Source: a virus
Lineage: Duplodnaviria; Heunggongvirae; Uroviricota; Caudoviricetes
Virus record (IMG/VR): IMGVR_UViG_3300029415_000001
DNA length: 64,000 nucleotides
Direction: 5' to 3' (one strand)
The notes beneath the pieces are model-generated. The model saw only the letters and a program-made list of their open reading frames with translations, searched no databases and was not told the origin of the DNA. This document shows, piece after piece, positions 25,296 to 47,838 of the stretch (positions within the stretch are counted from its first letter, which is position 1; each line of letters opens with the position of its first letter). The position numbers and the translations under genes are program-made.

Positions 25296-26854
25296 TTCTG
25301 CACCTCGCAGCCTTCAATTTCAGCCACAATCGCATCAATATCTTTGCGCAATTGGTCGATTTTGCTGACCGTGGTTTTCAGCTCTGCATTCAACTCAGCG
25401 ATATCGATAATTTCGCGAGTATCTTTCGCTTCCACATAGCTGCTCACCGACAGGTTATAGTCATTAGCGACAACGGTCTCAAACGCGACAGATTTCGCCA
25501 GATGAGCAACATCTTCCTTGCTGGCAAATACCTGCATAATCTGGTCGATATGGGCATCGGTCAGGATATTGTTGTTAGTCTCTTTTTTGAACAGTTCGCT
25601 GGCGTCAATAAACTGAACGTTGGTATCCGTTTTATGTTTAGACAGAACCAGAATGTTTACGGCAATGGTGGTGCCAAAGAACAGGTTCGGAGCCAGTGAA
25701 ATCACGGTTTCGACATAGTTATTGTCAACCAGATACTGACGGATTTTCTGCTCCGCGCCGCCACGGTAAAAAATACCCGGGAAGCAGACAATCGCAGCAC
25801 GACCTTTGGCCGAAAGATAATTCAGTGCATGTAGTACAAAGGCGAAGTCAGCTTTTGATTTGGGGGCCAGAACGCCAGCCGGGGCAAAACGCTCATCGTT
25901 AATCAGCGTCGGGTCATCGCTGCCAATCCATTTCACCGAATACGGCGGGTTAGAAACGATGGCATCAAACGGTTTTTCATCTCTGAAGTGCGGTTCAGTC
26001 AGCGTATTGCCCAGCTTGATATCAAACTTGTCGTAGTTGATGTTGTGCAAAAACATGTTCATACGCGCCAGGTTATAGGTCGTATGGTTGATTTCCTGAC
26101 CAAAAAAACCTTCTTCGATGATATGGTCATCAAACTGTTTTTTCGCCTGCAACAACAGCGAACCGGAGCCTGCTGCCGGGTCGTAGATTTTGTTAACGTT
26201 GGTCTGCCCGTGCATAGCCAGTTGTGCAATCAGCTTAGAGACGTGCTGCGGTGTAAAGAACTCGCCGCCGGACTTACCGGCATTCGCCGCATAGTTAGAA
26301 ATCAGGAACTCATAGGCATCGCCGAACAGGTCAATCTGATGTTCGTGGAAGTCACCAAGTTTTAGCCCTTCAACCCCTTTCAGAACCGCAGCCAGGCGGG
26401 CATTTTTATCTTTAACGGTGTTACCCAGGCGGTTACTGGTAGTATCGAAATCAGCAAACAAACCTTTGATGTCAGCTTCTGAAGGGTAACCGTAAGCAGA
26501 ACTTTCGATAGCAACGAAGATGCTGTTTAAATCCGCATTCAGTCTGTCATTGGTATTTGCTTTCGCAGCTACGTTGCAGAAAAGCTGACTGGGGTAGATG
26601 AAGTAGCCTTTGGTTCTGATGGCATCGTCTTTAATGTCATCAGTAATAATGCCGTCATCAAGTGCCGCATAACAGATGCTGTCATCACCATTTTCCATAT
26701 AACTGGAAAAATTTTCGCTGATAAAACGGTAGAAAAGTGCGCCCAGAACGTATTGCTTAAAATCCCATCCATCGACAGAACCTCTGACATCGTTAGCAAT
26801 TTGCCAGATTTGACGATGAAGCTCTGCACGTTGTTGAATACTTGTCATTTTCAT
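25292..26854 (-). CDS. hsdM: Type I methyltransferase subunit (HsdM), EcoR124-family
   Basis: 520 aa; NPPY motif (IVSNPPYS), AdoMet motif ([10 protein letters not shown]); near-identical to EcoR124I HsdM as recalled; 4-nt overlap with hsdS. Confidence 0.9.
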
Positions 26855-32530: not shown

Positions 32531-32752
32531 ATGGCTACTATCCCTACCCCAACTCATCCTGAATTTATCTGGCGCTTTTACTCCTGCCAAAAACGTCACT
32601 ATCACTTCGTTATTGCACCGACAGAAGATGAGGCCCGCTCTCAGCTTCCTGACGCCCCATGTATTTTCTCTGCCCGTTTTTCCACTGATTCACGCAATTC
32701 TCTCAGTTACTGGTGCCTCCCTGTTAACGCTTCTGCTCAGGAGGGACTATGA
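32531..32752 (+). CDS. Icd-like small protein (73 aa; cell-division-inhibitor family)
   Basis: ATG 32531 with TAAGGAGG RBS; pattern FIWRF...EDEARSQLPDAP...ARF typical of Icd-like proteins; track shows it inside a longer ORF 32303-32752. Confidence 0.55.
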   Translation: MATIPTPTHPEFIWRFYSCQKRHYHFVIAPTEDEARSQLPDAPCIFSARFSTDSRNSLSYWCLPVNASAQEGL

Positions 32753-33867
32753 GAACGTCATTAGTCACCCGTGAAGAGATGATCGAGGCAATTGAACAGC
32801 ACACTGCCTGTATCAGTACCAGGGATATACCAGGCGTTATTGCCAACTACTTCATGATCACCAAACAACTTTACCGGAGAAAGGACAAGAACGCGGTTCA
32901 CCGTATCCTGTTGTCTGATATCCGCGAATACCTGCTCGAACAGGGTCATCTGAATTACGTAACCGCCGCAGCCGAAGCACGCAAGGAGGCACACAGAATG
33001 AAAGCAACTAACGTTAAATCAGAAAAAATTCATGCACCTTCAGTTCAAGAATCGGAGCTGGTGGTTGTTCAGAATCAGTCTGATGAAATTCCCGTTCTGG
33101 AATGGCAGGGAGTGCGTGTAGTGACAACCGAGACTCTTGCTAGAGGGTATGGGACAGAAACAATCCGTATTCGCCAAAATCATCATGAGAACAAAGTACG
33201 CTTTGTTGAAGGGAAGCACTTTTTCAAAGTTGAAGGAGAATCATTGCGCGAGTTGAAGCACAGAGTAGCTTTAAACTACTCTGTAAAAATTGCTCGCAAT
33301 GTTCGCTCACTCACCCTCTGGACAGAACGCGGCGCAGCCCGCCACGCTAAAATGCTCGAAACCGATCAGGCATGGGCATTCTTTGAAAAACTGGAAGACA
33401 GCTACTTCCGACAAAAAGAACAGCAACCGATCGCAATCCCCCAGACGCTTCCTGAAGCCCTACGCCTGGCTGCCGAACTGGCTGAACAAAAGCAACTTCT
33501 GGAACAGAAAGCCCACCAGCTAAATCAGCAGCTGGTGGCCGCCGCTCCTAAAGTCGATTTTGCCGACCGGGTATCAGTAGCTAAAGGGATCCTGATTGGG
33601 AATTTTGCAAAGGTTGTTGGACTTAAACAAAACGCGCTGTTTGTCTGGTTACGGGAGAACGGCATCCTGATAGCGTCCGGTGGACGTAAAAATGTGCCGT
33701 TCCAGCAGTACATCAACGCGGGGTATTTCACGGTGAAAGAAGTGGTGCTGGATGATGAAGATGGCTACCAGATACGGTTGACGCCTCAATTAACGGGTAA
33801 AGGCCAGCAGTGGTTGACGCGTAAACTGCTCGATGCTGGCTTGTTAAAACCGGTGGCGGCTGAATAA
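32749..33867 (+). CDS. antirepressor-like protein (Bro-N/ORF6N-like plus KilA-C/Ant C-terminal domain), with strong internal RBS and ATG at 32998 (possible shorter in-frame product)
   Basis: 372 aa; C-terminal ...FADRVSVAKGILIGNFAKVVGLKQNALFVWLRENGILI... KilAC motif; internal AAGGAGG-9-ATG. Confidence 0.65.
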   Translation: MRTSLVTREEMIEAIEQHTACISTRDIPGVIANYFMITKQLYRRKDKNAVHRILLSDIREYLLEQGHLNYVTAAAEARKEAHRMKATNVKSEKIHAPSVQESELVVVQNQSDEIPVLEWQGVRVVTTETLARGYGTETIRIRQNHHENKVRFVEGKHFFKVEGESLRELKHRVALNYSVKIARNVRSLTLWTERGAARHAKMLETDQAWAFFEKLEDSYFRQKEQQPIAIPQTLPEALRLAAELAEQKQLLEQKAHQLNQQLVAAAPKVDFADRVSVAKGILIGNFAKVVGLKQNALFVWLRENGILIASGGRKNVPFQQYINAGYFTVKEVVLDDEDGYQIRLTPQLTGKGQQWLTRKLLDAGLLKPVAAE

Positions 33868-35452: not shown

Positions 35453-35486
35453 ATAACTTCGTATAGCATACATTATACGAAGTTAT
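35453..35486 (+). other. loxP recombination site
   Basis: Exact 34-bp ATAACTTCGTATA-GCATACAT-TATACGAAGTTAT. Confidence 0.99.
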
Positions 35487-35675
35487 CTTAAGGGTTATTG
35501 AACATGATCAATTTACCTGTAAATCCATACAGTTCAATACCTTATCAGGTCAAATAGTGATCACTTGATCATTTGATCAAGGTAGCGCTACGTAAAATCT
35601 GCGAAATGTTGGCGGTGTTAGTCCTACAGATTTCGCGTAGCGCACTTAGCACCACCAATCAATCAGAGGTGAAAA

Positions 35676-35897
35676 ATGGGATATTCAGCTGCTAAAGTGT
35701 CCACTCATCTTGAGCTTGAGAAAAACCGTGGTTACTGGCGGGCAAAAGGGTTTGATCGTGATAGTTGTCAACTGTCATTATCGCGCGGTGAAGAGAAAAT
35801 AGAACGCACGCGCGGTCGCTGGCGTTTCTATGACGAGAACCATAAACAGGTAAAGGCAGAGCCGATCCTGTACACTTTACTTAAAACCATTATCTGA
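35676..35897 (+). CDS. hypothetical 73-aa protein between loxP and cre
   Basis: ORF track; this reading frame is present upstream of cre in P1-derived sequences as recalled. Confidence 0.45.
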   Translation: MGYSAAKVSTHLELEKNRGYWRAKGFDRDSCQLSLSRGEEKIERTRGRWRFYDENHKQVKAEPILYTLLKTII

Positions 35898-35904
35898 GTG
35901 TTAA

Positions 35905-36936
35905 ATGTCCAATTTACTGACCGTACACCAAAATTTGCCTGCATTACCGGTCGATGCAACGAGTGATGAGGTTCGCAAGAACCTGATGGACATGTTCAGG
36001 GATCGCCAGGCGTTTTCTGAGCATACCTGGAAAATGCTTCTGTCCGTTTGCCGGTCGTGGGCGGCATGGTGCAAGTTGAATAACCGGAAGTGGTTTCCCG
36101 CAGAACCTGAAGATGTTCGCGATTATCTTCTATATCTTCAGGCGCGCGGTCTGGCAGTGAAAACTATCCAGCAACATTTGGGCCAGCTAAATATGCTTCA
36201 TCGTCGGTCCGGTCTGCCACGACCAAGTGACAGCAATGCTGTTTCACTGGTCATGCGACGGATCCGAAAAGAAAACGTTGATGCCGGTGAACGTGCAAAA
36301 CAGGCACTAGCGTTCGAACGCACTGATTTCGACCAGGTTCGTTCACTCATGGAAAATAGCGATCGCTGCCAGGATATACGTAATCTGGCATTTCTGGGGA
36401 TTGCTTATAACACCCTGTTACGTATAGCCGAAATTGCCAGGATCAGGGTTAAAGATATCTCACGTACTGACGGTGGGAGAATGTTAATCCATATTGGCAG
36501 AACGAAAACGCTGGTTAGCACCGCAGGTGTAGAGAAGGCACTTAGCCTGGGGGTAACTAAACTGGTCGAGCGATGGATTTCTGTCTCTGGTGTGGCTGAT
36601 GATCCGAATAACTACTTGTTTTGCCGGGTCAGAAAAAATGGTGTTGCCTCGCCATCACCCACCAGCCAGCTATCAACTCGCGCCCTGGAAGGGATTTTTG
36701 AAGCAACTCATCAATTGATTTACGGCGCTAAGGATGACTCTGGTCAGAGATACCTGGCCTGGTCTGGACACAGTGCCCGTGTCGGAGCCGCGCGAGATAT
36801 GGCCCGCGCTGGAGTTTCAATACCGGAGATCATGCAAGCTGGTGGCTGGACCAATGTAAATATTGTCATGAACTATATCCGTAACCTGGATAGTGAAACA
36901 GGGGCAATGGTGCGCCTGCTGGAAGATGGCGATTAG
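35905..36936 (+). CDS. cre: Cre tyrosine recombinase (variant)
   Basis: 343 aa; near-identical to P1 Cre as recalled, with a few substitutions (VASPSPTSQLS, THQLIYG). Confidence 0.98.
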   Translation: MSNLLTVHQNLPALPVDATSDEVRKNLMDMFRDRQAFSEHTWKMLLSVCRSWAAWCKLNNRKWFPAEPEDVRDYLLYLQARGLAVKTIQQHLGQLNMLHRRSGLPRPSDSNAVSLVMRRIRKENVDAGERAKQALAFERTDFDQVRSLMENSDRCQDIRNLAFLGIAYNTLLRIAEIARIRVKDISRTDGGRMLIHIGRTKTLVSTAGVEKALSLGVTKLVERWISVSGVADDPNNYLFCRVRKNGVASPSPTSQLSTRALEGIFEATHQLIYGAKDDSGQRYLAWSGHSARVGAARDMARAGVSIPEIMQAGGWTNVNIVMNYIRNLDSETGAMVRLLEDGD

Positions 36937-38992: not shown

Positions 38993-40300
38993 ATGAGCGA
39001 ATATGTTGAGTTAGCATACGCTGCCGCTACAAGCAGGCTTTGTCTATTTACCGGGACTGGCTTTTCAAAGGCAGTCTCGAACGGTGAAGCTCCAACGTGG
39101 AAGGAACTATTAAAAAAAGTTTGCAGCAAAGTTCACAATGCCAAAAAGTTGGAAGACACGTTATTCCCTGATGATAAACCACCAGCACTGAGTCTTGAAG
39201 AAGCCGCACAAATACTATCTTTGAAGCTCAATATTGAGGGTAAGTCGATTTATGATGAAATTGTTGACATCATATCTCCAATTCAACTTGGAGAAGGTAT
39301 ATCAAATATAAAAGACTTTTTCCAAAAAAACTCATTCCGTGTCATTACAACAAATTATGACAAATTGGCTGAATGCTTGGTTGGAGATGAGAGAGTTCAG
39401 TCTATCACTCCAGGATTACCAGTTCCGAAGTATCGTTCTAATGTGAAAATATATCATGTTCATGGCTCTATTGACTCACCAAAAAATATGGTTGTCACTT
39501 CTGAAGACTACTTTAGGTTTATAAACTCTAACACTTATTTTTCACGAAAACTGAGTACAATGCTGCATGAAAATACAGTTGCGATATTAGGATATTCTTT
39601 AAGCGACACAAACCTTAAAGCAATTATAAATGATTACAAAACCTTCTCGAAAGGTAATGCGCTATGCTCTAATATATTTTTCATTTCTCGCAGCAAAGTA
39701 AGCCAAGACATGAAGGATTATTATTTTTATTGTTTTGGGATACGAGTAATTGATAAAACTGAAATAGATTGTTTCTTTGAGCGTCTGAGTAGTAAAATGG
39801 TGTTGATTGAAGACATCATGGCAAGAGCCAGAGAAAGTATAAAAAGAGTTGTTTCAGGGGCTTTTAACTATAGGGATGAATATCTCAAATTAGAGGATTC
39901 TTTTTACCAAATAACATCTTCTATTATGTCGGAAGGTTTCGATTGGAGTGACAATAAAGTTGTTGGTTTTTTTAAAAGGCTAATCGAACAAAAAAGAGAA
40001 TTAACAAGAAAAGATGGGGCGTGGGAACAATATGAGCATCTTGCAAAATGGCTCATATATTTTGGAAGCATCATAGAAATTACTGACACTAAGTATGAAA
40101 ATGTATATTTAGAGGCAGTCGAATACTCAATGTCCAATATGAGCAAAGAAAGGCGGTTAGGTTATTCGTGGCATGCTTATAGAGCTTGGGAAACGCGATG
40201 GTCTTCAATCATTGCTTCAAATCGATTAATTATAAAAAAACACATCGAAGACCTTGGCGTGCTGGATGACGCCAATTCTATAGTGAAAAATATAGTGTAA
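38993..40300 (+). CDS. SIR2-like (SIR2_2 / DHS-like NAD-binding) domain protein, standalone, 435 aa; candidate NAD-depleting defence effector
   Basis: Motifs LFTGTGFS (GAGxS-like), VITTNYD (catalytic Asn), KIYHVHGS (catalytic His); ATG with GGAG RBS; gene visibly AT-rich relative to flanks; sits between mat and lxc. Confidence 0.75.
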   Translation: MSEYVELAYAAATSRLCLFTGTGFSKAVSNGEAPTWKELLKKVCSKVHNAKKLEDTLFPDDKPPALSLEEAAQILSLKLNIEGKSIYDEIVDIISPIQLGEGISNIKDFFQKNSFRVITTNYDKLAECLVGDERVQSITPGLPVPKYRSNVKIYHVHGSIDSPKNMVVTSEDYFRFINSNTYFSRKLSTMLHENTVAILGYSLSDTNLKAIINDYKTFSKGNALCSNIFFISRSKVSQDMKDYYFYCFGIRVIDKTEIDCFFERLSSKMVLIEDIMARARESIKRVVSGAFNYRDEYLKLEDSFYQITSSIMSEGFDWSDNKVVGFFKRLIEQKRELTRKDGAWEQYEHLAKWLIYFGSIIEITDTKYENVYLEAVEYSMSNMSKERRLGYSWHAYRAWETRWSSIIASNRLIIKKHIEDLGVLDDANSIVKNIV

Positions 40301-41070: not shown

Positions 41071-44000
41071 TTATGCGTATTGTTGGATGACGGCCAGAAC
41101 GTCCGCCACGTTGTGTTTTGTCTCGATAATCCACCAGTTACCCGGGAAATCGCTGTTCTTCGCCTTCGCTGGCAGCCAGCGAGCGCCGAATTTCGCCTTG
41201 ATTGCGTCTTTCGCACGGAAAAGAACGCCTTTCATGCCTGAGGCTTCCTGAAGCCCAAATACCTCGCCAGCGGCGAATTTTGGTGCGTACATCATCTTCA
41301 GGTCGGCGGTGGATACGCGATAATTCAGACCAAGAGACTGAGCTATGCTGGTGGCATCACCCTGTATTGATGATAACTCTTCTTGTTTCTCGTTTCTGGC
41401 GGCAATTTCTTCCTCCGTGATGTTGCCAAGGGCCAGGTTTATCCGATCAGCGTCGGCCTGTTTCTCTTCATCGGTGCGCCCGGCAAGAACCGTGTTAATT
41501 CTCTGCAATATCTCCACATGGTTCTTGCGAATGCTGAGCAATTCCGGCGTAACCTCGTTAAGGTCCACCAGCCCAAGGATGGCAAGGTCGGAAAACATTG
41601 ATACCAGGTTGTAGGTCATGCGATAGCTGAGTTGGCCATAGGCTGATGGCAACTGCACCGCATCCATTTGATAGGCATCCATAAATTTAGAGCCGTCGTT
41701 TACGACATCCGCAATTGCCGGTGTGATTTTCCCTGTGGTGGCGGCCTCCCTGATTGCTGTTACCCACGATTGAGTCAGCGCGGCGACTGCATGATTCAGA
41801 TTGGCTTCCCGTTCTGCTGCGATGCGCGCGCTTGCTGCGTCCATTGCCTGCTTGATCTCGGCTTTATTGCTGTAAATGCCAATAGTGCCAAACTGTGCTG
41901 TGGTGATCTCATAATCTGACGCCCGGAACTCATGGGTACCGAAAATGGCATTGGTGACCTCAAGTTCAGAATCCCCGTTACGAGTAGCCCCCTGGCTTGT
42001 TTTCTCCGGCATTTTTGCGATCGCATCCACTATTTTCTCCTGAATTGCTTCAGGGGATAACGTATCTCCGTATGACGCGATTACATCGCCATAATTGGAG
42101 CCAAACAATTCAACCAGGAATGTTTCTGCCGAACGGATCTGGCGGTTATTCCCTTCCGACATCATACCAAGCACCCATTTTGCAATTGACGACTTCAGCG
42201 CGCCGTCACGGCGATCCGGGTAAACCGCATGCTTCAGTGGGGCCGTATAGGTACCAACAAAATCAATGCTATAGCCTGACTCTGTAGTCTGAACGCCGTA
42301 TGAGTCAGTGATTTTGATCATGCCGCGCTGCTGGAAACGGTAGAAATCGTCACAGGAAATGATGTCGTTAATCCCGGCGATGGAGACGCCACCACTGATT
42401 TTCTGCATAACAGCATCTTCATCGGGAGTTACATCAACCTGTTTATCCAGCGTCTTCACATCCCAGTTACCCGATTTGGTGCCTTTGAAGGTAAAGATGA
42501 TCTCCACGTCTGCGCGCTGGCTGTCGAAGTCCAGCGACTTAATGCGAACGATATCACCGGCACAATCGTAGTATTGGCCTACACGCCATGAGCGATCGCC
42601 GATAACAAGGAACTCATTCGCATGGTTAACCAGATCAGGATCAACATCCAGAATGCCTTTATTTATTGCATCCTCCACCAGCGGGCGCAGGCGTTTGATA
42701 TCCGTCGCGGCCTTCTGGGTACGGTTCAATAATTTCTCATAGCGGGAGATGGCCTGAGAGATATTAGCCTTGCGCTGAATGGCGCTTTTCAACGACGCGC
42801 GATACTGTGCTAACAACATACGGTCTGTGTGATGGACACTCCCCCAGCGGGCCTTCCAGTCTGCGTTATCCGCTGCCTTGGCCATTGCCGCCTGTTTGAA
42901 TTTAGCTACCTCGGCGGTGGTCTTTTCAAGTTCCGCTTTGCTTCGCTCTAATTCAGCGGTAAGTACCTCCACATCCTCGCCAGCTGCGTGCTGCGCCTTG
43001 ATGTAGTTCTGAAGGTCGATAGTAGCCTGTTCTTTCTGGCGAGCGCGTTTCGCAGCTTTCGCCTTATCCATTTGAACCTGCATCATTGCCAGACGTTCGC
43101 CGTCATCCTTCGCGGTATACATCTGCATTTCGATCATGTCATTGGCGTCGGCGTTCTCCATTTCTGACTTATCTGAACGGAGGATATCGGAGATCCAGCC
43201 TGCTTTACGCTTCAGCGTCTTCAGTCGGTATTCATCGAAAGACCCCTTGCCGCAGTAGTAGTGAACGCGAACGCTTGCACGGTTGGAACCAACTCGGGCA
43301 CCGCGACCGTTACGCTGTGCGATACTGGCTGGTGTCCACGGCAACGTCAGGTGGTGGATATCCGTCGTTCCTCGATGCAGGTTGATACCCACCTCTGCCT
43401 TTTTGTTGCAGATGATGATCGGAGTCCGGCCCTCCTGGAAGTCGGCTGCAATCTTTTCCAGACCGCCCAACGACATTTCATTTTGCTGCGCGATATAGGC
43501 GTCATACAGAGCCATTTGCTCGTTGTATTTCGCTATCTGTGCATCTGTTGGTTCATCCGGTAACTCTTTCGGCGGTTTAACCGCTTTCAGTTTCTTACCG
43601 GTTTTACCTGCCTCGGCAACCGTCTGAGCATTCAGTATCCCCACCTTTGAAGGTTCAAGGTTAAGAGCATTGCAGATAATGCGCTTGAGCTTCTGGTGCT
43701 GCGTTTTTTCATCGGTGAAGATGATTTGCTTACCTTCCGGGAAAAACTCCTTCAGCGTGGCAATCAGCTTCGCGTATTTGGGCGTAACGGGGTGAGTTAC
43801 GGTCTGTTCGTCAATGCCAAACCTGGCCAGGCGCTTATTCACTTCCTGCTCGAACGCTTCCGGAACCTGCAACTGAATAAACTCGCCCTTATCTATCAGG
43901 GAGTATTGCGATTGCTGCGTGATTGAATCATCACTGTCGTCGTCTTCGCTGGTGGCTTGTTTAGGCAAACTGTCCGCCAGCTGCTGCACCGCATCGGCGT

Positions 44001-47000
44001 ACTCCGGCAGGAAACGATAGGTGATCCGGCGATAGTACAGGTCCATGTCAGTACATACGCGGTCCATATCCCTGATTATTGAGAAGATCGGACGGGCTTT
44101 CTCGTGCTCAATCACGCCGTCTTCATTGACCGAGGTCGTTACGCCATTGTTGGCTTTGGCCGCCGCTTCCGCCTGCTGACGCAATTCTTCATACGCCGCC
44201 AGTTGTTCTTCAGTAAGTGGTGCATCCTGCTGGTGTTCGTCCAGCTCCGGGATCTCCACGGTATCCTTAACGTCTTCCGCCGTTTTAAGCGTTACCCAGC
44301 GATGGAATATACCGCGCAGCGCATCAAGGTTTTCAAAGCCCACCAGCGCCATTTTTTCTTCAACTTCACCGCTGATTTTCTGTACCGTTTCCAGCCTGGT
44401 CTTGCCGAAGAATTTAACGAAGTCATCAGGACCGTAGATCCCCATCTTCTGCCAGTATTCCTTCGGCAGAACATGAGAAAGCATGTTGTATGCATCGATC
44501 GGGGTGTTAACGACTGGCGTTGCAGTCAGGAGAACCGGCCCGCGCCCGCCATTCTTTTTCATCAGGTACGCGTTTTTAATTGCCATATCTCGCGCCGATT
44601 GCGCCACCGCGCTGGTGGGCAGATAGGCCAGTTGTGACGCTTCGCGACCATTTTTATAGCTATTGCGGTAGTTGTGACCTTCGTCAGCGATCACACTATC
44701 GAAGCCCATATCCTCAAAGTACGGATACTTCTCTGCTTTTTCGGTGCCGGTATCTGAATACTCCGACAATACCCGGCGACGCGCAGCCTCTTTGCGGTGG
44801 GAGTCGGAGTCCATTGCGCTGGCTACGCGCCCGGCGGCAACGAAGTCATAAAGCATATCCTGTGCATGCTCATCTACGGTGTCATCACGTAGCGGAATGC
44901 GGGCGTATTGTTCTTTGGTAAACACGACTGCACGGTAATTTGAGTGCGGGATCGCGTTCATCCGCGCCGTGATAGTGGCTTCATCTGCCAGCTTAAGAGC
45001 ATCGCGCATAACTGGAGTGCCATCAGTACCAAGAACAGGTTTACCGTTCTCATCGAGCACCGGCACCTGGCGAATCTGATCGCCATCCATCAGCACATCA
45101 AGACCGACGAACAGGTAGTTACTGAATGCCTCTTCACTCAGGAATTCTTTTGCTTCGTAATACCAGTTTTCCAGCACTGATTTAGGCACTACATACGCAG
45201 TACGGGTGGAGCGACCGTTCTCATAGTTGAACGCCTCAAGCGCCAGCGCGGTCGTGGTTTTACCCAGCCCGGTGCCGAAGCCAAGGATGCCGCGCCCATC
45301 TTCGGACAGTCGGCGCACCTCGCTATTCTGGTAATCAAATGGCTGGCGCTTACCGCTTAATCCCTTCAACCCAAGCGGATCGCCAGAGTGTTCATACGGG
45401 ATATTGCTATTGAACACATCGTTGTATTTGGCAACCAGCTCATCGTAGCGATCGTGCGTCTTGATCCACTTATTGAACTGGTCCTCAAGCAGTGCCATCT
45501 GCTCGCGGTAGCCGTTCGCCGTCGCGCTATCTTTGCCACCGATACGCGCACCATTGAGATACTTTTCCAGCTGTGCCGGGAACCCGGTCGCGTTTTCACC
45601 TGATTTACGGTCCCACTCGTAGCGGATCTCGCCTGTTTCTTTATCCTTACGCTGGACGACACCGTATCGGTGCCCGACGAACAGACCATCACCACCGTGA
45701 TAGGTGTCAGAAACCATTTCGTCGCCTTCCAACTGCACTGACTGCACATAGCGCAGATCCGGATAGCCGTTTTCCTGCAAAAACTCCAGAATGACGGAAC
45801 GGTCGAACCAACGGCTATTGAGCTTAAAGCGGATATTCTCTGCTGGCGTCTTGATGCGCTTCTCTTCGATCGCTGCCAGCTGATTAAGGACGTTGTTCTT
45901 TACTGGACCGTCGGGGAGCGTGGCGAGGAATTCCTGTTTTGGAGCCACTATCTCGTTAATGTTGCCGCTGGTGGCGCGGGCGAACGGAACAATCCCGCCA
46001 TACGGTGAAACCGCAATGCCAGGGGTGCTGGCCAATAAATTAAGCAACTCGTCATCACTGGCTGGCAGTTCGCCGGTAAACGCAAGGCGGAAATCATCGA
46101 GCTGGATTGGATCGCGAGTGAGATCACTGTAGAGATAACGCAGGGTGTCCTGATAGCTGGTGGAGTCATAACTGGCGCTGGAATCATGCGTAACCAGTTT
46201 TCCTGTCAGCTCGTCAGAAATAGTGCCATCCAGCTTAATTGCACCACGGAAAGCAAACCAGGCGCGAGCACCGCTCCCCGATAATTTCGCTATCGGACCG
46301 CGACCGGGGTTACCAAAACGGTCAATCTCTGCCTGCAAACGGGATACCAGAGAAAGGCGCTGCTGTTCGATTTGTTCAGCACTATGCCCGGCGGCCTTCA
46401 TGTCCTGATATTCAATTAACATCCGGCCAATCATCGCCCCGCGATACAAGCGTTCACGGTATTTTTCAGGCTGGCTGTTAATCCAGTCCACCAGCTGCAC
46501 CATATCGTCGCTGATTGATGTGGTGTACTTATCGCGGACATTTGCCATCTGGGTAAATGTCATACCGAGACGGCCTTCTGTTGTAGTCAGGTTACGCTGA
46601 AGAGCCTCCCAGCTATCCGCGCCATAACTGGCAGCATCAATCTTAAGCTCCTTACCAGCATCAGCTTCAATCCAGCGACCACCAGCATATTTTTGCCATA
46701 CGCCATTAATCAGGCGCATTTCCCCTTCATCAACAACATCTGCGGTCGGTGACGGTTCAGCCATATCGAGCAAAGACCAGTCGATACGACTTTCGAAACG
46801 ATGAATCAGCTTCGCTTTAAGAGCCTGGTTATCAATCTGCCCGTCGGCACGAACCTCAATACGCCCCTGGAATCCCTTCTCCTGGGTGCCATGAACAAAC
46901 CGGCGGCCGTCCTTTTCAAACCACTTGCCAGAAATAAACGTTGGCCAAAGCACATTTGCCGATTCAAGAGTGCTCTCATCCACCAGGGGGATTTTCTCAG

Positions 47001-47838
47001 CCATCTCTGCCGGATGTTTGCGCATCAGCACCACATCTACGACCGTACTGGTCCCGTTTGCGTCAAAAGTACCGGTAGGCAAGCGGTGGGCACCAAGAAA
47101 TTCAGCTTTACGGGATAGGCGCAGGCGTAACCGCTTCATGTTTGAACCTGAAACAATGGACGGCGGCACAATCACACACATGAATCCGCCAGGCTTTATC
47201 TTGTCCAACATGCGGAGCATGAAGTAAGACCCCATGTCCGTTTCTTCTGCGTAAGGTTTATCGATGTTGCGTGTGTTATCACGACCACCGAACGGAACGT
47301 TACCCACCACATGGTCGAATGAATCGTTAGGCGTGCTTACAGCCAGCTGTTCAAACGGGGAAATCTGTACGCTGTCTTCCGGGTGTAACAGCTGGTTTAT
47401 ACGACCGGAAACACTGCTGATCTCAGTCGCGGTCATCACCGTACCAACCGGTTTTGTCTCATTAAAAACGCCGGTGCCCGCCGATGGTTCCAGAGTGTTA
47501 CCTACGTCCGCACCATAGAGCTTCATGATCTCCCAGACGCCTTCAGCGATAGGCTTTGGTGTGTAATATTCGGAGACGGACCCGCCAATGCCGCCTTCAC
47601 CGGTGTACCCAGCCAGGATCTGGCGCTGTTCATCTGTCAGTGTCGCGCCATCCACCAGCGAATTAAGCAAATCTATCGCCTTCTGATTCGCCTCCCGGCG
47701 TAGTCGGTCATAGCTTTTGCCTTCCACCTTTTCCACGCCGTATCTAATCGGCGCTCGGTGAGATGTTATTGCCCTAATGTATTTCAATATTTCGCTGACA
47801 CTTGAACAGCGAAACACCCCCATAGATAGCTTGTTCAT
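41071..47838 (-). CDS. darB: DarB-like antirestriction protein: N-terminal N6-adenine methyltransferase plus SF2 helicase domains
   Basis: 2255 aa (same length as P1 DarB as recalled); MTase motifs (EPSAGTGVF, GNVPFGG), helicase motifs (GFGTGLGKTT). Confidence 0.85.
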   Translation of the reverse strand: MNKLSMGVFRCSSVSEILKYIRAITSHRAPIRYGVEKVEGKSYDRLRREANQKAIDLLNSLVDGATLTDEQRQILAGYTGEGGIGGSVSEYYTPKPIAEGVWEIMKLYGADVGNTLEPSAGTGVFNETKPVGTVMTATEISSVSGRINQLLHPEDSVQISPFEQLAVSTPNDSFDHVVGNVPFGGRDNTRNIDKPYAEETDMGSYFMLRMLDKIKPGGFMCVIVPPSIVSGSNMKRLRLRLSRKAEFLGAHRLPTGTFDANGTSTVVDVVLMRKHPAEMAEKIPLVDESTLESANVLWPTFISGKWFEKDGRRFVHGTQEKGFQGRIEVRADGQIDNQALKAKLIHRFESRIDWSLLDMAEPSPTADVVDEGEMRLINGVWQKYAGGRWIEADAGKELKIDAASYGADSWEALQRNLTTTEGRLGMTFTQMANVRDKYTTSISDDMVQLVDWINSQPEKYRERLYRGAMIGRMLIEYQDMKAAGHSAEQIEQQRLSLVSRLQAEIDRFGNPGRGPIAKLSGSGARAWFAFRGAIKLDGTISDELTGKLVTHDSSASYDSTSYQDTLRYLYSDLTRDPIQLDDFRLAFTGELPASDDELLNLLASTPGIAVSPYGGIVPFARATSGNINEIVAPKQEFLATLPDGPVKNNVLNQLAAIEEKRIKTPAENIRFKLNSRWFDRSVILEFLQENGYPDLRYVQSVQLEGDEMVSDTYHGGDGLFVGHRYGVVQRKDKETGEIRYEWDRKSGENATGFPAQLEKYLNGARIGGKDSATANGYREQMALLEDQFNKWIKTHDRYDELVAKYNDVFNSNIPYEHSGDPLGLKGLSGKRQPFDYQNSEVRRLSEDGRGILGFGTGLGKTTTALALEAFNYENGRSTRTAYVVPKSVLENWYYEAKEFLSEEAFSNYLFVGLDVLMDGDQIRQVPVLDENGKPVLGTDGTPVMRDALKLADEATITARMNAIPHSNYRAVVFTKEQYARIPLRDDTVDEHAQDMLYDFVAAGRVASAMDSDSHRKEAARRRVLSEYSDTGTEKAEKYPYFEDMGFDSVIADEGHNYRNSYKNGREASQLAYLPTSAVAQSARDMAIKNAYLMKKNGGRGPVLLTATPVVNTPIDAYNMLSHVLPKEYWQKMGIYGPDDFVKFFGKTRLETVQKISGEVEEKMALVGFENLDALRGIFHRWVTLKTAEDVKDTVEIPELDEHQQDAPLTEEQLAAYEELRQQAEAAAKANNGVTTSVNEDGVIEHEKARPIFSIIRDMDRVCTDMDLYYRRITYRFLPEYADAVQQLADSLPKQATSEDDDSDDSITQQSQYSLIDKGEFIQLQVPEAFEQEVNKRLARFGIDEQTVTHPVTPKYAKLIATLKEFFPEGKQIIFTDEKTQHQKLKRIICNALNLEPSKVGILNAQTVAEAGKTGKKLKAVKPPKELPDEPTDAQIAKYNEQMALYDAYIAQQNEMSLGGLEKIAADFQEGRTPIIICNKKAEVGINLHRGTTDIHHLTLPWTPASIAQRNGRGARVGSNRASVRVHYYCGKGSFDEYRLKTLKRKAGWISDILRSDKSEMENADANDMIEMQMYTAKDDGERLAMMQVQMDKAKAAKRARQKEQATIDLQNYIKAQHAAGEDVEVLTAELERSKAELEKTTAEVAKFKQAAMAKAADNADWKARWGSVHHTDRMLLAQYRASLKSAIQRKANISQAISRYEKLLNRTQKAATDIKRLRPLVEDAINKGILDVDPDLVNHANEFLVIGDRSWRVGQYYDCAGDIVRIKSLDFDSQRADVEIIFTFKGTKSGNWDVKTLDKQVDVTPDEDAVMQKISGGVSIAGINDIISCDDFYRFQQRGMIKITDSYGVQTTESGYSIDFVGTYTAPLKHAVYPDRRDGALKSSIAKWVLGMMSEGNNRQIRSAETFLVELFGSNYGDVIASYGDTLSPEAIQEKIVDAIAKMPEKTSQGATRNGDSELEVTNAIFGTHEFRASDYEITTAQFGTIGIYSNKAEIKQAMDAASARIAAEREANLNHAVAALTQSWVTAIREAATTGKITPAIADVVNDGSKFMDAYQMDAVQLPSAYGQLSYRMTYNLVSMFSDLAILGLVDLNEVTPELLSIRKNHVEILQRINTVLAGRTDEEKQADADRINLALGNITEEEIAARNEKQEELSSIQGDATSIAQSLGLNYRVSTADLKMMYAPKFAAGEVFGLQEASGMKGVLFRAKDAIKAKFGARWLPAKAKNSDFPGNWWIIETKHNVADVLAVIQQYA

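What the first reader, a model, noticed from the sequence alone, without database searches (positions are those of the whole stretch)
35905..36936. Cre variant with substitutions near the DNA-contacting region
Compared with the Cre sequence I recall, this protein reads GVASPSPTSQLS (not GVAAPSATSQLS) and EATHQLIYG (not EATHRLIYG). The Arg-to-Gln change falls at a position I recall as R259, a base-contacting residue, yet the adjacent loxP is exactly canonical.
Basis: partly seen in the sequence, partly recalled or inferred. Interest (0 to 1): 0.35.

Follow-up and report, generated by a model that had tools for sequence, protein, structure and literature searches.

The report
Ordinary natural Cre allele, P1-like plasmid
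This is the normal Cre recombinase gene of a wild P1-like phage-plasmid; its three amino-acid differences from textbook Cre (A249S, A252P, R270Q) lie at variable positions with no recorded DNA contact, so the unchanged loxP site beside it is no puzzle.

Summary
The ORF at 35905-36936 (+) encodes a 343-aa Cre. It differs from P1 and crystal-structure Cre at exactly three residues: A249S, A252P and R270Q. There are also 11 synonymous changes.

It is at residue 270, not 259. R259, the arginine that reads guanine 10 of loxP, is intact within the unchanged STRALEG stretch.

A published hydrogen-bond table for Cre/loxP lists no contact for residues 249, 252 or 270. All six catalytic residues and all 39 tabulated contact residues are unchanged.

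Positions 249 and 252 are the most polymorphic sites in the small sample of wild Cre alleles I examined. The S249/P252 DNA haplotype occurs in 80 of about 700 cre-bearing PLSDB plasmids. Position 270 varies across Cre-type recombinases (R in 19 of 43, Q in 4 of 43).

R270Q is a minority allele. It is absent from PLSDB and from 5,426 complete E. coli genomes. The identical protein is nevertheless already public, on 49 contigs. It sits on two synonymous DNA backgrounds and always has canonical loxP at the same offset.

Verdict: an ordinary, already-deposited allele under purifying selection. Interest is low.

The parts
35453..35486 (+). loxP, exact canonical 34 bp (two 13-bp inverted arms and an 8-bp spacer)
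   Evidence: 0 mismatches, 0 expected by chance; the P1 coordinate origin (centre of lox) maps to window 35469/35470; the same 34 bp is invariant in 15 other loci, while the flanking bases at -1, -5, -6, +1 and +6 vary.
35573..35893 (+). cre promoter region (P3cre about 35573-35598, P2cre about 35752-35781, P1cre about 35869-35893), placed by gap-free colinearity with annotated P1
   Evidence: P1 annotation plus the gap-free alignment. The only differences inside promoters are in spacers (P1 nt 115 and 299). The -35 and -10 hexamers, the Dam sites and the LexA box are unchanged. Positions are inferred by homology and were not tested.
35676..35897 (+). cra (Cre-associated ORF, 73 aa) immediately upstream of cre
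   Evidence: ORF. It corresponds to P1 cra at 207-428. No Pfam hit.
35905..36936 (+). cre, 343 aa plus stop. Tyrosine recombinase, 340/343 identical to P1 Cre.
   Evidence: PF00589, 114 bits. Catalytic residues R173, K201, H289, R292, W315 and Y324 are present.
36582..36713 (+). 132-nt tract (cre nt 678-809) holding 7 of the 14 differences from P1, including all three non-synonymous ones; probably a recombination patch
   Evidence: Six of the seven variant bases (all except nt 809) are shared with pEA24_3 and p266917_2_02. The tract occurs on two different 5' synonymous backgrounds.
36649..36651 (+). codon 249, TCG (Ser) instead of GCG (Ala)
   Evidence: A249S is present in 4 of 11 full-length cluster alleles sampled.
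36658..36660 (+). codon 252, CCC (Pro) instead of GCC (Ala)
   Evidence: The S249/P252 DNA haplotype occurs in 80 PLSDB plasmids. A252S is present in RCS47 and in 6 of 11 sampled alleles.
36712..36714 (+). codon 270, CAA (Gln) instead of CGA (Arg); the lineage-specific change
   Evidence: No carrier in PLSDB or in 5,426 complete E. coli genomes. The identical protein is on 49 public contigs.

Best explanation
This is the functional cre gene of a wild P1-like phage-plasmid (Punavirus type). Its product is expected to act as ordinary Cre. It should bind the two 13-bp arms of the adjacent canonical loxP, form the tetrameric synapse, and exchange strands through Y324 with R173, K201, H289, R292 and W315. 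That reaction circularises incoming terminally redundant phage DNA and resolves plasmid dimers. These roles are established for P1 Cre and are inferred here. A249S and A252P are a common natural haplotype in the poorly constrained loop before recognition helix J. R270Q is a single G>A transition that arose on that haplotype, at a variable position near the C-terminal end of helix J. All three are best read as neutral or nearly neutral polymorphisms, and nothing suggests they change site specificity.
For: The protein is 340/343 identical to solved Cre over its full length. R259, the six catalytic residues and all 39 residues in the published Cre/loxP H-bond table are unchanged (table from PMC7438526). 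Residues 249, 252 and 270 do not appear in that table. The AlphaFold2 model of this variant puts 250-257 in coil and helix J at 258-273, with block-mean pLDDT of 92-95 across residues 241-270. In an alignment of 43 Cre-type recombinases, 249 is in an indel-prone loop, 252 is T/S/P/A and others, and 270 is R in 19, Q in 4 and eleven other residues elsewhere. Selection is purifying: pN/pS is 0.086 against P1. The same protein is encoded on two backgrounds that differ by 9-11 substitutions, all synonymous, with P=6e-7 under neutrality. The identical protein is on 49 public contigs in 114 index blocks, with differing neighbouring cargo (SIR2_2, RelA_SpoT, Tn3 transposase; pacB or ant upstream). 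In all ten loci fetched, canonical loxP sits at the same offset (one locus is shifted by 1 nt). The loxP 34 bp are invariant in 16 loci while the immediately flanking bases vary. The window is colinear with P1 64325-94800 plus 1-3468. The cre promoter hexamers, Dam sites and LexA box are unchanged. Cre split after residue 251 or 270 and re-joined through dimerisation domains still recombines loxP more than 10-fold (PMC6813296), which shows these points tolerate disruption.
Against: No recombination assay exists for this allele. Position 249 is DNA-proximal: in a Dre/rox model, R249 contacts a phosphate, and A248V, A249V and P250S recur in the evolved recombinase RecHTLV (PMC10362392). On an ideal helical wheel, residue 270 lies on the same face of helix J as R259 and E266 (20 degrees offset). 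E266 buttresses R259, so an indirect effect cannot be excluded. R270Q is rare, with none among about 700 cre-bearing records in each of two complete-genome collections. That rarity is compatible with neutrality but also with mild deleteriousness.
Confidence: 0.9

Rival explanations
1. The substitutions are adaptive. They would tune DNA affinity, cooperativity or specificity through the pre-helix-J loop (249/252) and through the network linking R259, E266 and residue 270 on helix J, while still accepting canonical loxP.
For: The three changes cluster (P=0.010) in the segment that carries many specificity determinants in evolved recombinases: K244, N245, A248, A249, R259, E262, E266 and T268. 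Residue 270 shares a helical face with R259 and E266. Positions 249 and 252 show several alleles (A/S and A/S/P) in wild Cre, which could reflect diversifying selection.
Against: The published H-bond table lists no DNA contact for these residues. The same positions vary freely or are deleted in distant homologues, as expected under relaxed constraint. loxP has not co-varied in any of the 16 loci. The clustering is explained by a shared recombination tract that also carries four synonymous changes.
Confidence: 0.07
2. The allele is mildly defective or decaying. Cre would be dispensable in a recA+ host, so R270Q and a proline in the loop would be tolerated damage.
For: R270Q is absent from PLSDB and from complete E. 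coli genomes. Pro for Ala and the loss of a charge are not conservative changes.
Against: The ORF is intact. pN/pS is 0.086, and there are 0 non-synonymous among 10 differences between the two backgrounds carrying the allele. The allele persists in many independent assemblies and metagenomes with diversified cargo. Pro at 252 and Gln at 270 occur naturally in other Cre-type proteins.
Confidence: 0.02
3. The variant is a sequencing or assembly artefact, or a laboratory-engineered Cre from a vector.
For: Engineered Cre sequences are abundant in databases (for example pCrCre and RecV among the hits).
Against: Identical DNA (0 differences) occurs in three independent contigs, and the identical protein occurs in at least 25 contigs read from NCBI isolates and ENA metagenomes. 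The window carries about 39 kb of the P1 backbone in native order.
Confidence: 0.01

Closest known systems
Cre recombinase of phage P1 (NC_005856 gp003; PDB 1NZB, 1Q3U, 3C29 and others)
   Same: Length 343 aa with 340/343 identical. The same catalytic residues and DNA-contact residues. The same canonical loxP 452 nt upstream. The same gene order: c1-coi-lox-cra-cre-c8-ref-mat.
   Different: A249S, A252P, R270Q and 11 synonymous changes.
Wild Cre alleles with the S249/P252 haplotype (for example E. albertii pEA24_3 WP_029393497.1 and E. coli p266917_2_02 WP_050858708.1)
   Same: They share six of the seven variant bases of the 3' tract (cre nt 678, 690, 712, 745, 753, 754), and therefore A249S and A252P. 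The haplotype is in 80 PLSDB plasmids.
   Different: They keep R270 (CGA) and carry other synonymous changes downstream.
The identical deposited protein (EFB4743307.1, EFD8768262.1 and others; UniParc UPI00092C2C3A, 'site-specific integrase [Escherichia coli]')
   Same: 100% identical over 343 aa. It is found on P1-like contigs with canonical loxP.
   Different: None at protein level. Some copies differ by 9-11 synonymous bases.
Engineered Cre derivatives (Tre, RecHTLV, CreALSHG)
   Same: They are also changed in the 244-268 segment.
   Different: They change true contact residues (K244, R259, E262, G263, E266) and recognise altered lox sites. This allele changes none of those residues and sits beside canonical loxP.

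Membership tests
Cre (P1-type cyclisation recombinase) | Near-identity to experimentally characterised Cre over its full length | tested here: met
   E=6e-229, residues 1-343 aligned to 1-343, three mismatches.
Cre (P1-type cyclisation recombinase) | Cognate 34-bp loxP adjacent to the gene | tested here: met
   exact loxP at 35453-35486; the same site in 15 related loci.
Cre (P1-type cyclisation recombinase) | Base-reading residues for loxP retained (K43, K86, Q90, K201, R243, K244, R259, R282) | tested here: met
   none of the 39 residues in the Table S1 contact list differs from P1.
Cre (P1-type cyclisation recombinase) | P1 immC / lox / cra / cre / c8 / ref genomic context | tested here: met
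   colinear with P1 93232-94800 and 1-3468.
Cre (P1-type cyclisation recombinase) | Catalyses loxP x loxP recombination | not testable with these tools
   Requires an in vitro or in vivo assay.
Tyrosine recombinase / phage integrase superfamily | Catalytic residues R-K-H-R-(H/W)-Y | tested here: met
   R173, K201, H289, R292, W315 and Y324 are present. They are invariant in family alignment A1.
Tyrosine recombinase / phage integrase superfamily | Pfam PF00589 catalytic domain above the gathering score | tested here: met
   114.4 bits against a cut-off of 27.1.
   R259 is intact. The changed residues 249, 252 and 270 are absent from the contact table.

The most novel reading that the evidence does not exclude
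R270Q removes a positive charge one helical turn beyond E266 on the DNA-facing side of helix J. Together with the A249S/A252P loop it might shift how E266 holds R259. The result would be a natural Cre with measurably different affinity or fidelity on loxP or pseudo-lox sites, which could serve as a naturally pre-tested scaffold mutation for designer recombinases.
Probability: 0.06. Interest if true: 0.3.

Novelty: already known. Interest (0 to 1): 0.06.

Why it matters
It matters little. The result removes an apparent paradox: a base-contacting arginine supposedly lost while the target site stayed unchanged. It also records that residues 249 and 252 are the most polymorphic positions in the wild Cre alleles sampled here, and that Q270 is tolerated in nature. 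That is a small piece of information for people who engineer Cre. Nature has in effect tested these three substitutions with canonical loxP. Nothing here opens a new question.

Tried and rejected
Several approaches gave nothing useful.

- Literature searches for 'Cre recombinase' with 'R270' returned only p53-R270H and VDR mouse papers.
- The search for 'A249' gave one relevant paper, RecHTLV.
- A search for 'split Cre' with '270 271' found nothing. The split-site data came from PMC6813296 instead.
- The bioRxiv domain-insertion Cre paper held nothing on these residues.
- A search for papers on wild P1-like cre/loxP diversity found no functional study of natural Cre alleles.

I considered three readings and rejected them.

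- A specificity-switch variant: no contact residue has changed and loxP has not co-varied.
- A pseudogene or decaying gene: the ORF is intact and selection is strongly purifying.
- A vector or engineered origin: the window carries the native P1 backbone, and the allele recurs in independent isolates.

I did not compare the model with PDB structures, because 99% sequence identity to solved Cre already settles the fold.

Full report
**What is in the sequence**

Window 35905-36936 (+) is an uninterrupted 343-codon ORF.

A search against all PDB chains aligns it end to end with Cre recombinase (1NZB, 1Q3U and others, E about 6e-229), with three mismatches. A codon-by-codon comparison with cre of phage P1 (NC_005856, fetched) gives 14 nucleotide differences. 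Eleven are synonymous. The three non-synonymous ones are:
- A249S (GCG>TCG, window nt 36649)
- A252P (GCC>CCC, nt 36658)
- R270Q (CGA>CAA, nt 36713)

A perfect 34-bp loxP lies at 35453-35486 (+), 452 nt upstream of the ATG, with none expected by chance.

The substitutions and the canonical loxP are therefore real. The Arg-to-Gln change is at position 270. R259 sits in the unchanged STRALEG stretch.

**Context**

The window is colinear with P1 coordinates 64325-94800 and then 1-3468. It crosses the P1 coordinate origin, which is the centre of lox, at window 35469/35470.

The local gene order is ant-like gene, c1, coi, loxP, cra, cre, c8, ref, mat. The interval from loxP to cre aligns with P1 without gaps. 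The differences there miss the -35 and -10 hexamers of P1cre, P2cre and P3cre, the Dam sites and the LexA box.

This is a wild P1-like phage-plasmid, not a vector.

**Do the changed residues touch DNA?**

Published structural work places the base-specific contact at R259, which makes bidentate bonds to guanine 10. Minor-groove contacts come from the loop 241-245 that precedes helix J (PMC5766204; PMC7438526).

The full hydrogen-bond table for Cre/loxP covers crystal 1Q3U plus 100 ns of MD (PMC7438526 Table S1). It lists 39 protein residues. Residues 249, 252 and 270 are not among them, and none of the 39 differs in this protein. The six catalytic residues R173, K201, H289, R292, W315 and Y324 are present.

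An AlphaFold2 model of this variant, built on a 43-sequence alignment, has mean pLDDT 85, with block means of 92-95 across residues 241-270. It puts 250-257 in coil and helix J at 258-273. Residues 249 and 252 are thus in the pre-helix loop, and Q270 is near the C-terminal end of helix J.

Two caveats apply.
- Position 249 is DNA-proximal. In a Dre/rox model, R249 touches a phosphate, and A248V, A249V and P250S arise in the evolved recombinase RecHTLV.
- On an ideal helical wheel, residue 270 is only 20 degrees from R259 and 40 degrees from E266. E266 buttresses R259. An indirect effect is therefore conceivable but has no support.

Experiments that split Cre after residue 251 or after residue 270, and re-join the halves through dimerisation domains, still give more than 10-fold induced loxP recombination (PMC6813296). 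Both points tolerate heavy disruption.

**Natural variation**

cre is common. It is present in 701 PLSDB plasmids, in 695 of 5,426 complete E. coli genomes, and in 21 phage records, all at 95-99% identity to this copy.

Among 18 cre genes compared at the DNA level, the S249/P252 codons occur together with four linked synonymous changes in a 132-nt tract (cre nt 678-809). That tract is shared with E. albertii pEA24_3 and E. coli p266917_2_02. An exact 40-nt probe for this haplotype hits 80 PLSDB plasmids.

Phage RCS47 carries A252S. In a small sample of 11 full-length alleles from the 2,403-member 90% cluster, A249S occurs in 4 and A252S in 6. In that sample, 249 and 252 are the most polymorphic positions of wild Cre.

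R270Q is the lineage-specific step.
- In PLSDB, no record is better than 97.5% over an 81-nt probe spanning all the variant sites.
- A 40-nt probe centred on the Q270 codon finds nothing in the complete E. coli genomes.

Even so, the exact 343-aa protein is already public. Examples are EFB4743307.1 and UniParc UPI00092C2C3A, 'site-specific integrase [Escherichia coli]'. It is on 49 contigs and is indexed in 114 blocks of the assembly collection.

Ten such loci were fetched. Three have DNA identical to the window. Seven differ by 9-11 bases, all synonymous. Their neighbours differ: SIR2_2, RelA_SpoT, Tn3 transposase or other genes downstream, and pacB or ant upstream. All ten carry canonical loxP at the same offset, shifted by 1 nt in one locus.

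**Selection**

pN/pS against P1 is 0.086. Between the two synonymous backgrounds that encode the identical protein, 0 of 10 differences are non-synonymous, with P=6e-7 under neutrality. The allele is therefore maintained as a working gene.

The 34 bp of loxP are invariant in all 16 loci examined, while the bases at -1, -5, -6, +1 and +6 vary.

The three replacements cluster more than chance predicts (P=0.010). The tract structure explains this. Seven of the 14 differences lie in 132 nt, and four of those seven are synonymous. This points to an imported recombination patch rather than targeted adaptive change.

**The wider family**

I aligned 43 Cre-type recombinases sharing 33-99% identity.
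- Position 249 lies in a loop that is deleted in 18 sequences.
- Position 252 is T, S, P, A and six other residues.
- Position 270 is R in 19, Q in 4 (this allele plus three distant homologues) and eleven other residues.
- By contrast, E262, I264, F265 and the catalytic residues are invariant or nearly so.

**Conclusion**

The best explanation (confidence 0.9) is that this is an ordinary, functional Cre. It is expected to do what P1 Cre does at canonical loxP: cyclise incoming DNA and resolve plasmid dimers. Those roles are established for P1 and are inferred here. The protein carries a common loop haplotype plus one rarer, probably neutral, change on helix J.

The rival readings are less likely:
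- adaptive tuning of affinity or specificity, 0.07
- mild defect, 0.02
- artefact or engineered origin, 0.01

None of the three substitutions has been assayed. A side-by-side recombination and binding assay, and a distance measurement for residue 270 in the deposited coordinates, would settle the remaining doubt.

On novelty, the protein is Cre and this exact sequence is already deposited. I rate it 'already known', with low interest.

Noticed in passing
window 38993-40300 (+): A 435-aa SIR2_2-domain protein sits directly after mat, where P1 carries the EcoP1I res/mod genes. Its best PADLOC match is the candidate system PDC-S25, with weaker matches to ThsA and LmuA. Other carriers of the same Cre allele have RelA_SpoT, a Tn3 transposase or other genes at this spot, so it looks like a variable defence or cargo slot.
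   Followed up: partly
window 20801-26854 (-): A complete type I restriction-modification operon (HsdR 1038 aa of the EcoR124 type, HsdS 418 aa, HsdM 520 aa) replaces the P1 segment 84481-87970 (pmgT to humD). P1's own annotation notes that the flanks of that segment match sequence next to the EcoDXXI and R124/3 hsd loci.
   Followed up: partly
window 32749-33867 (+): An extra 372-aa antirepressor-like gene (ORF6N plus KilAC/ANT domains) lies between pacB and c1. It is absent from P1 but present in most contigs that carry this Cre allele. Two of those contigs have the P1-like pacB-c1 junction instead.
   Followed up: partly
window 35452 and 35487 (also L002-L018): The bases immediately flanking loxP on both sides differ from P1 (G for A at -1, C for A at +1) and vary among related plasmids, while the 34-bp site never varies. 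This shows the functional boundary of the site directly.
   Followed up: yes
L002 2772-2993, L018 372-593, and phage records: Public annotation errors. The small cra product is labelled 'creatininase' in RefSeq plasmids. Native cre is labelled 'GST-loxP-cre recombinase fusion protein' in many phage records, a name propagated from a vector.
   Followed up: no
window 41071-47838 (-): A 2255-aa ORF lies downstream of the SIR2 gene. From memory, this is the size of P1 DarB, which would suggest a return to P1 synteny. I did not compare it, because I did not fetch P1 3.5-50 kb.
   Followed up: no
window 6081-7170: A short segment has no match at 300 nt or longer to the corresponding P1 region (70207-70924, tciA-tciC). 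Its content was not examined.
   Followed up: no
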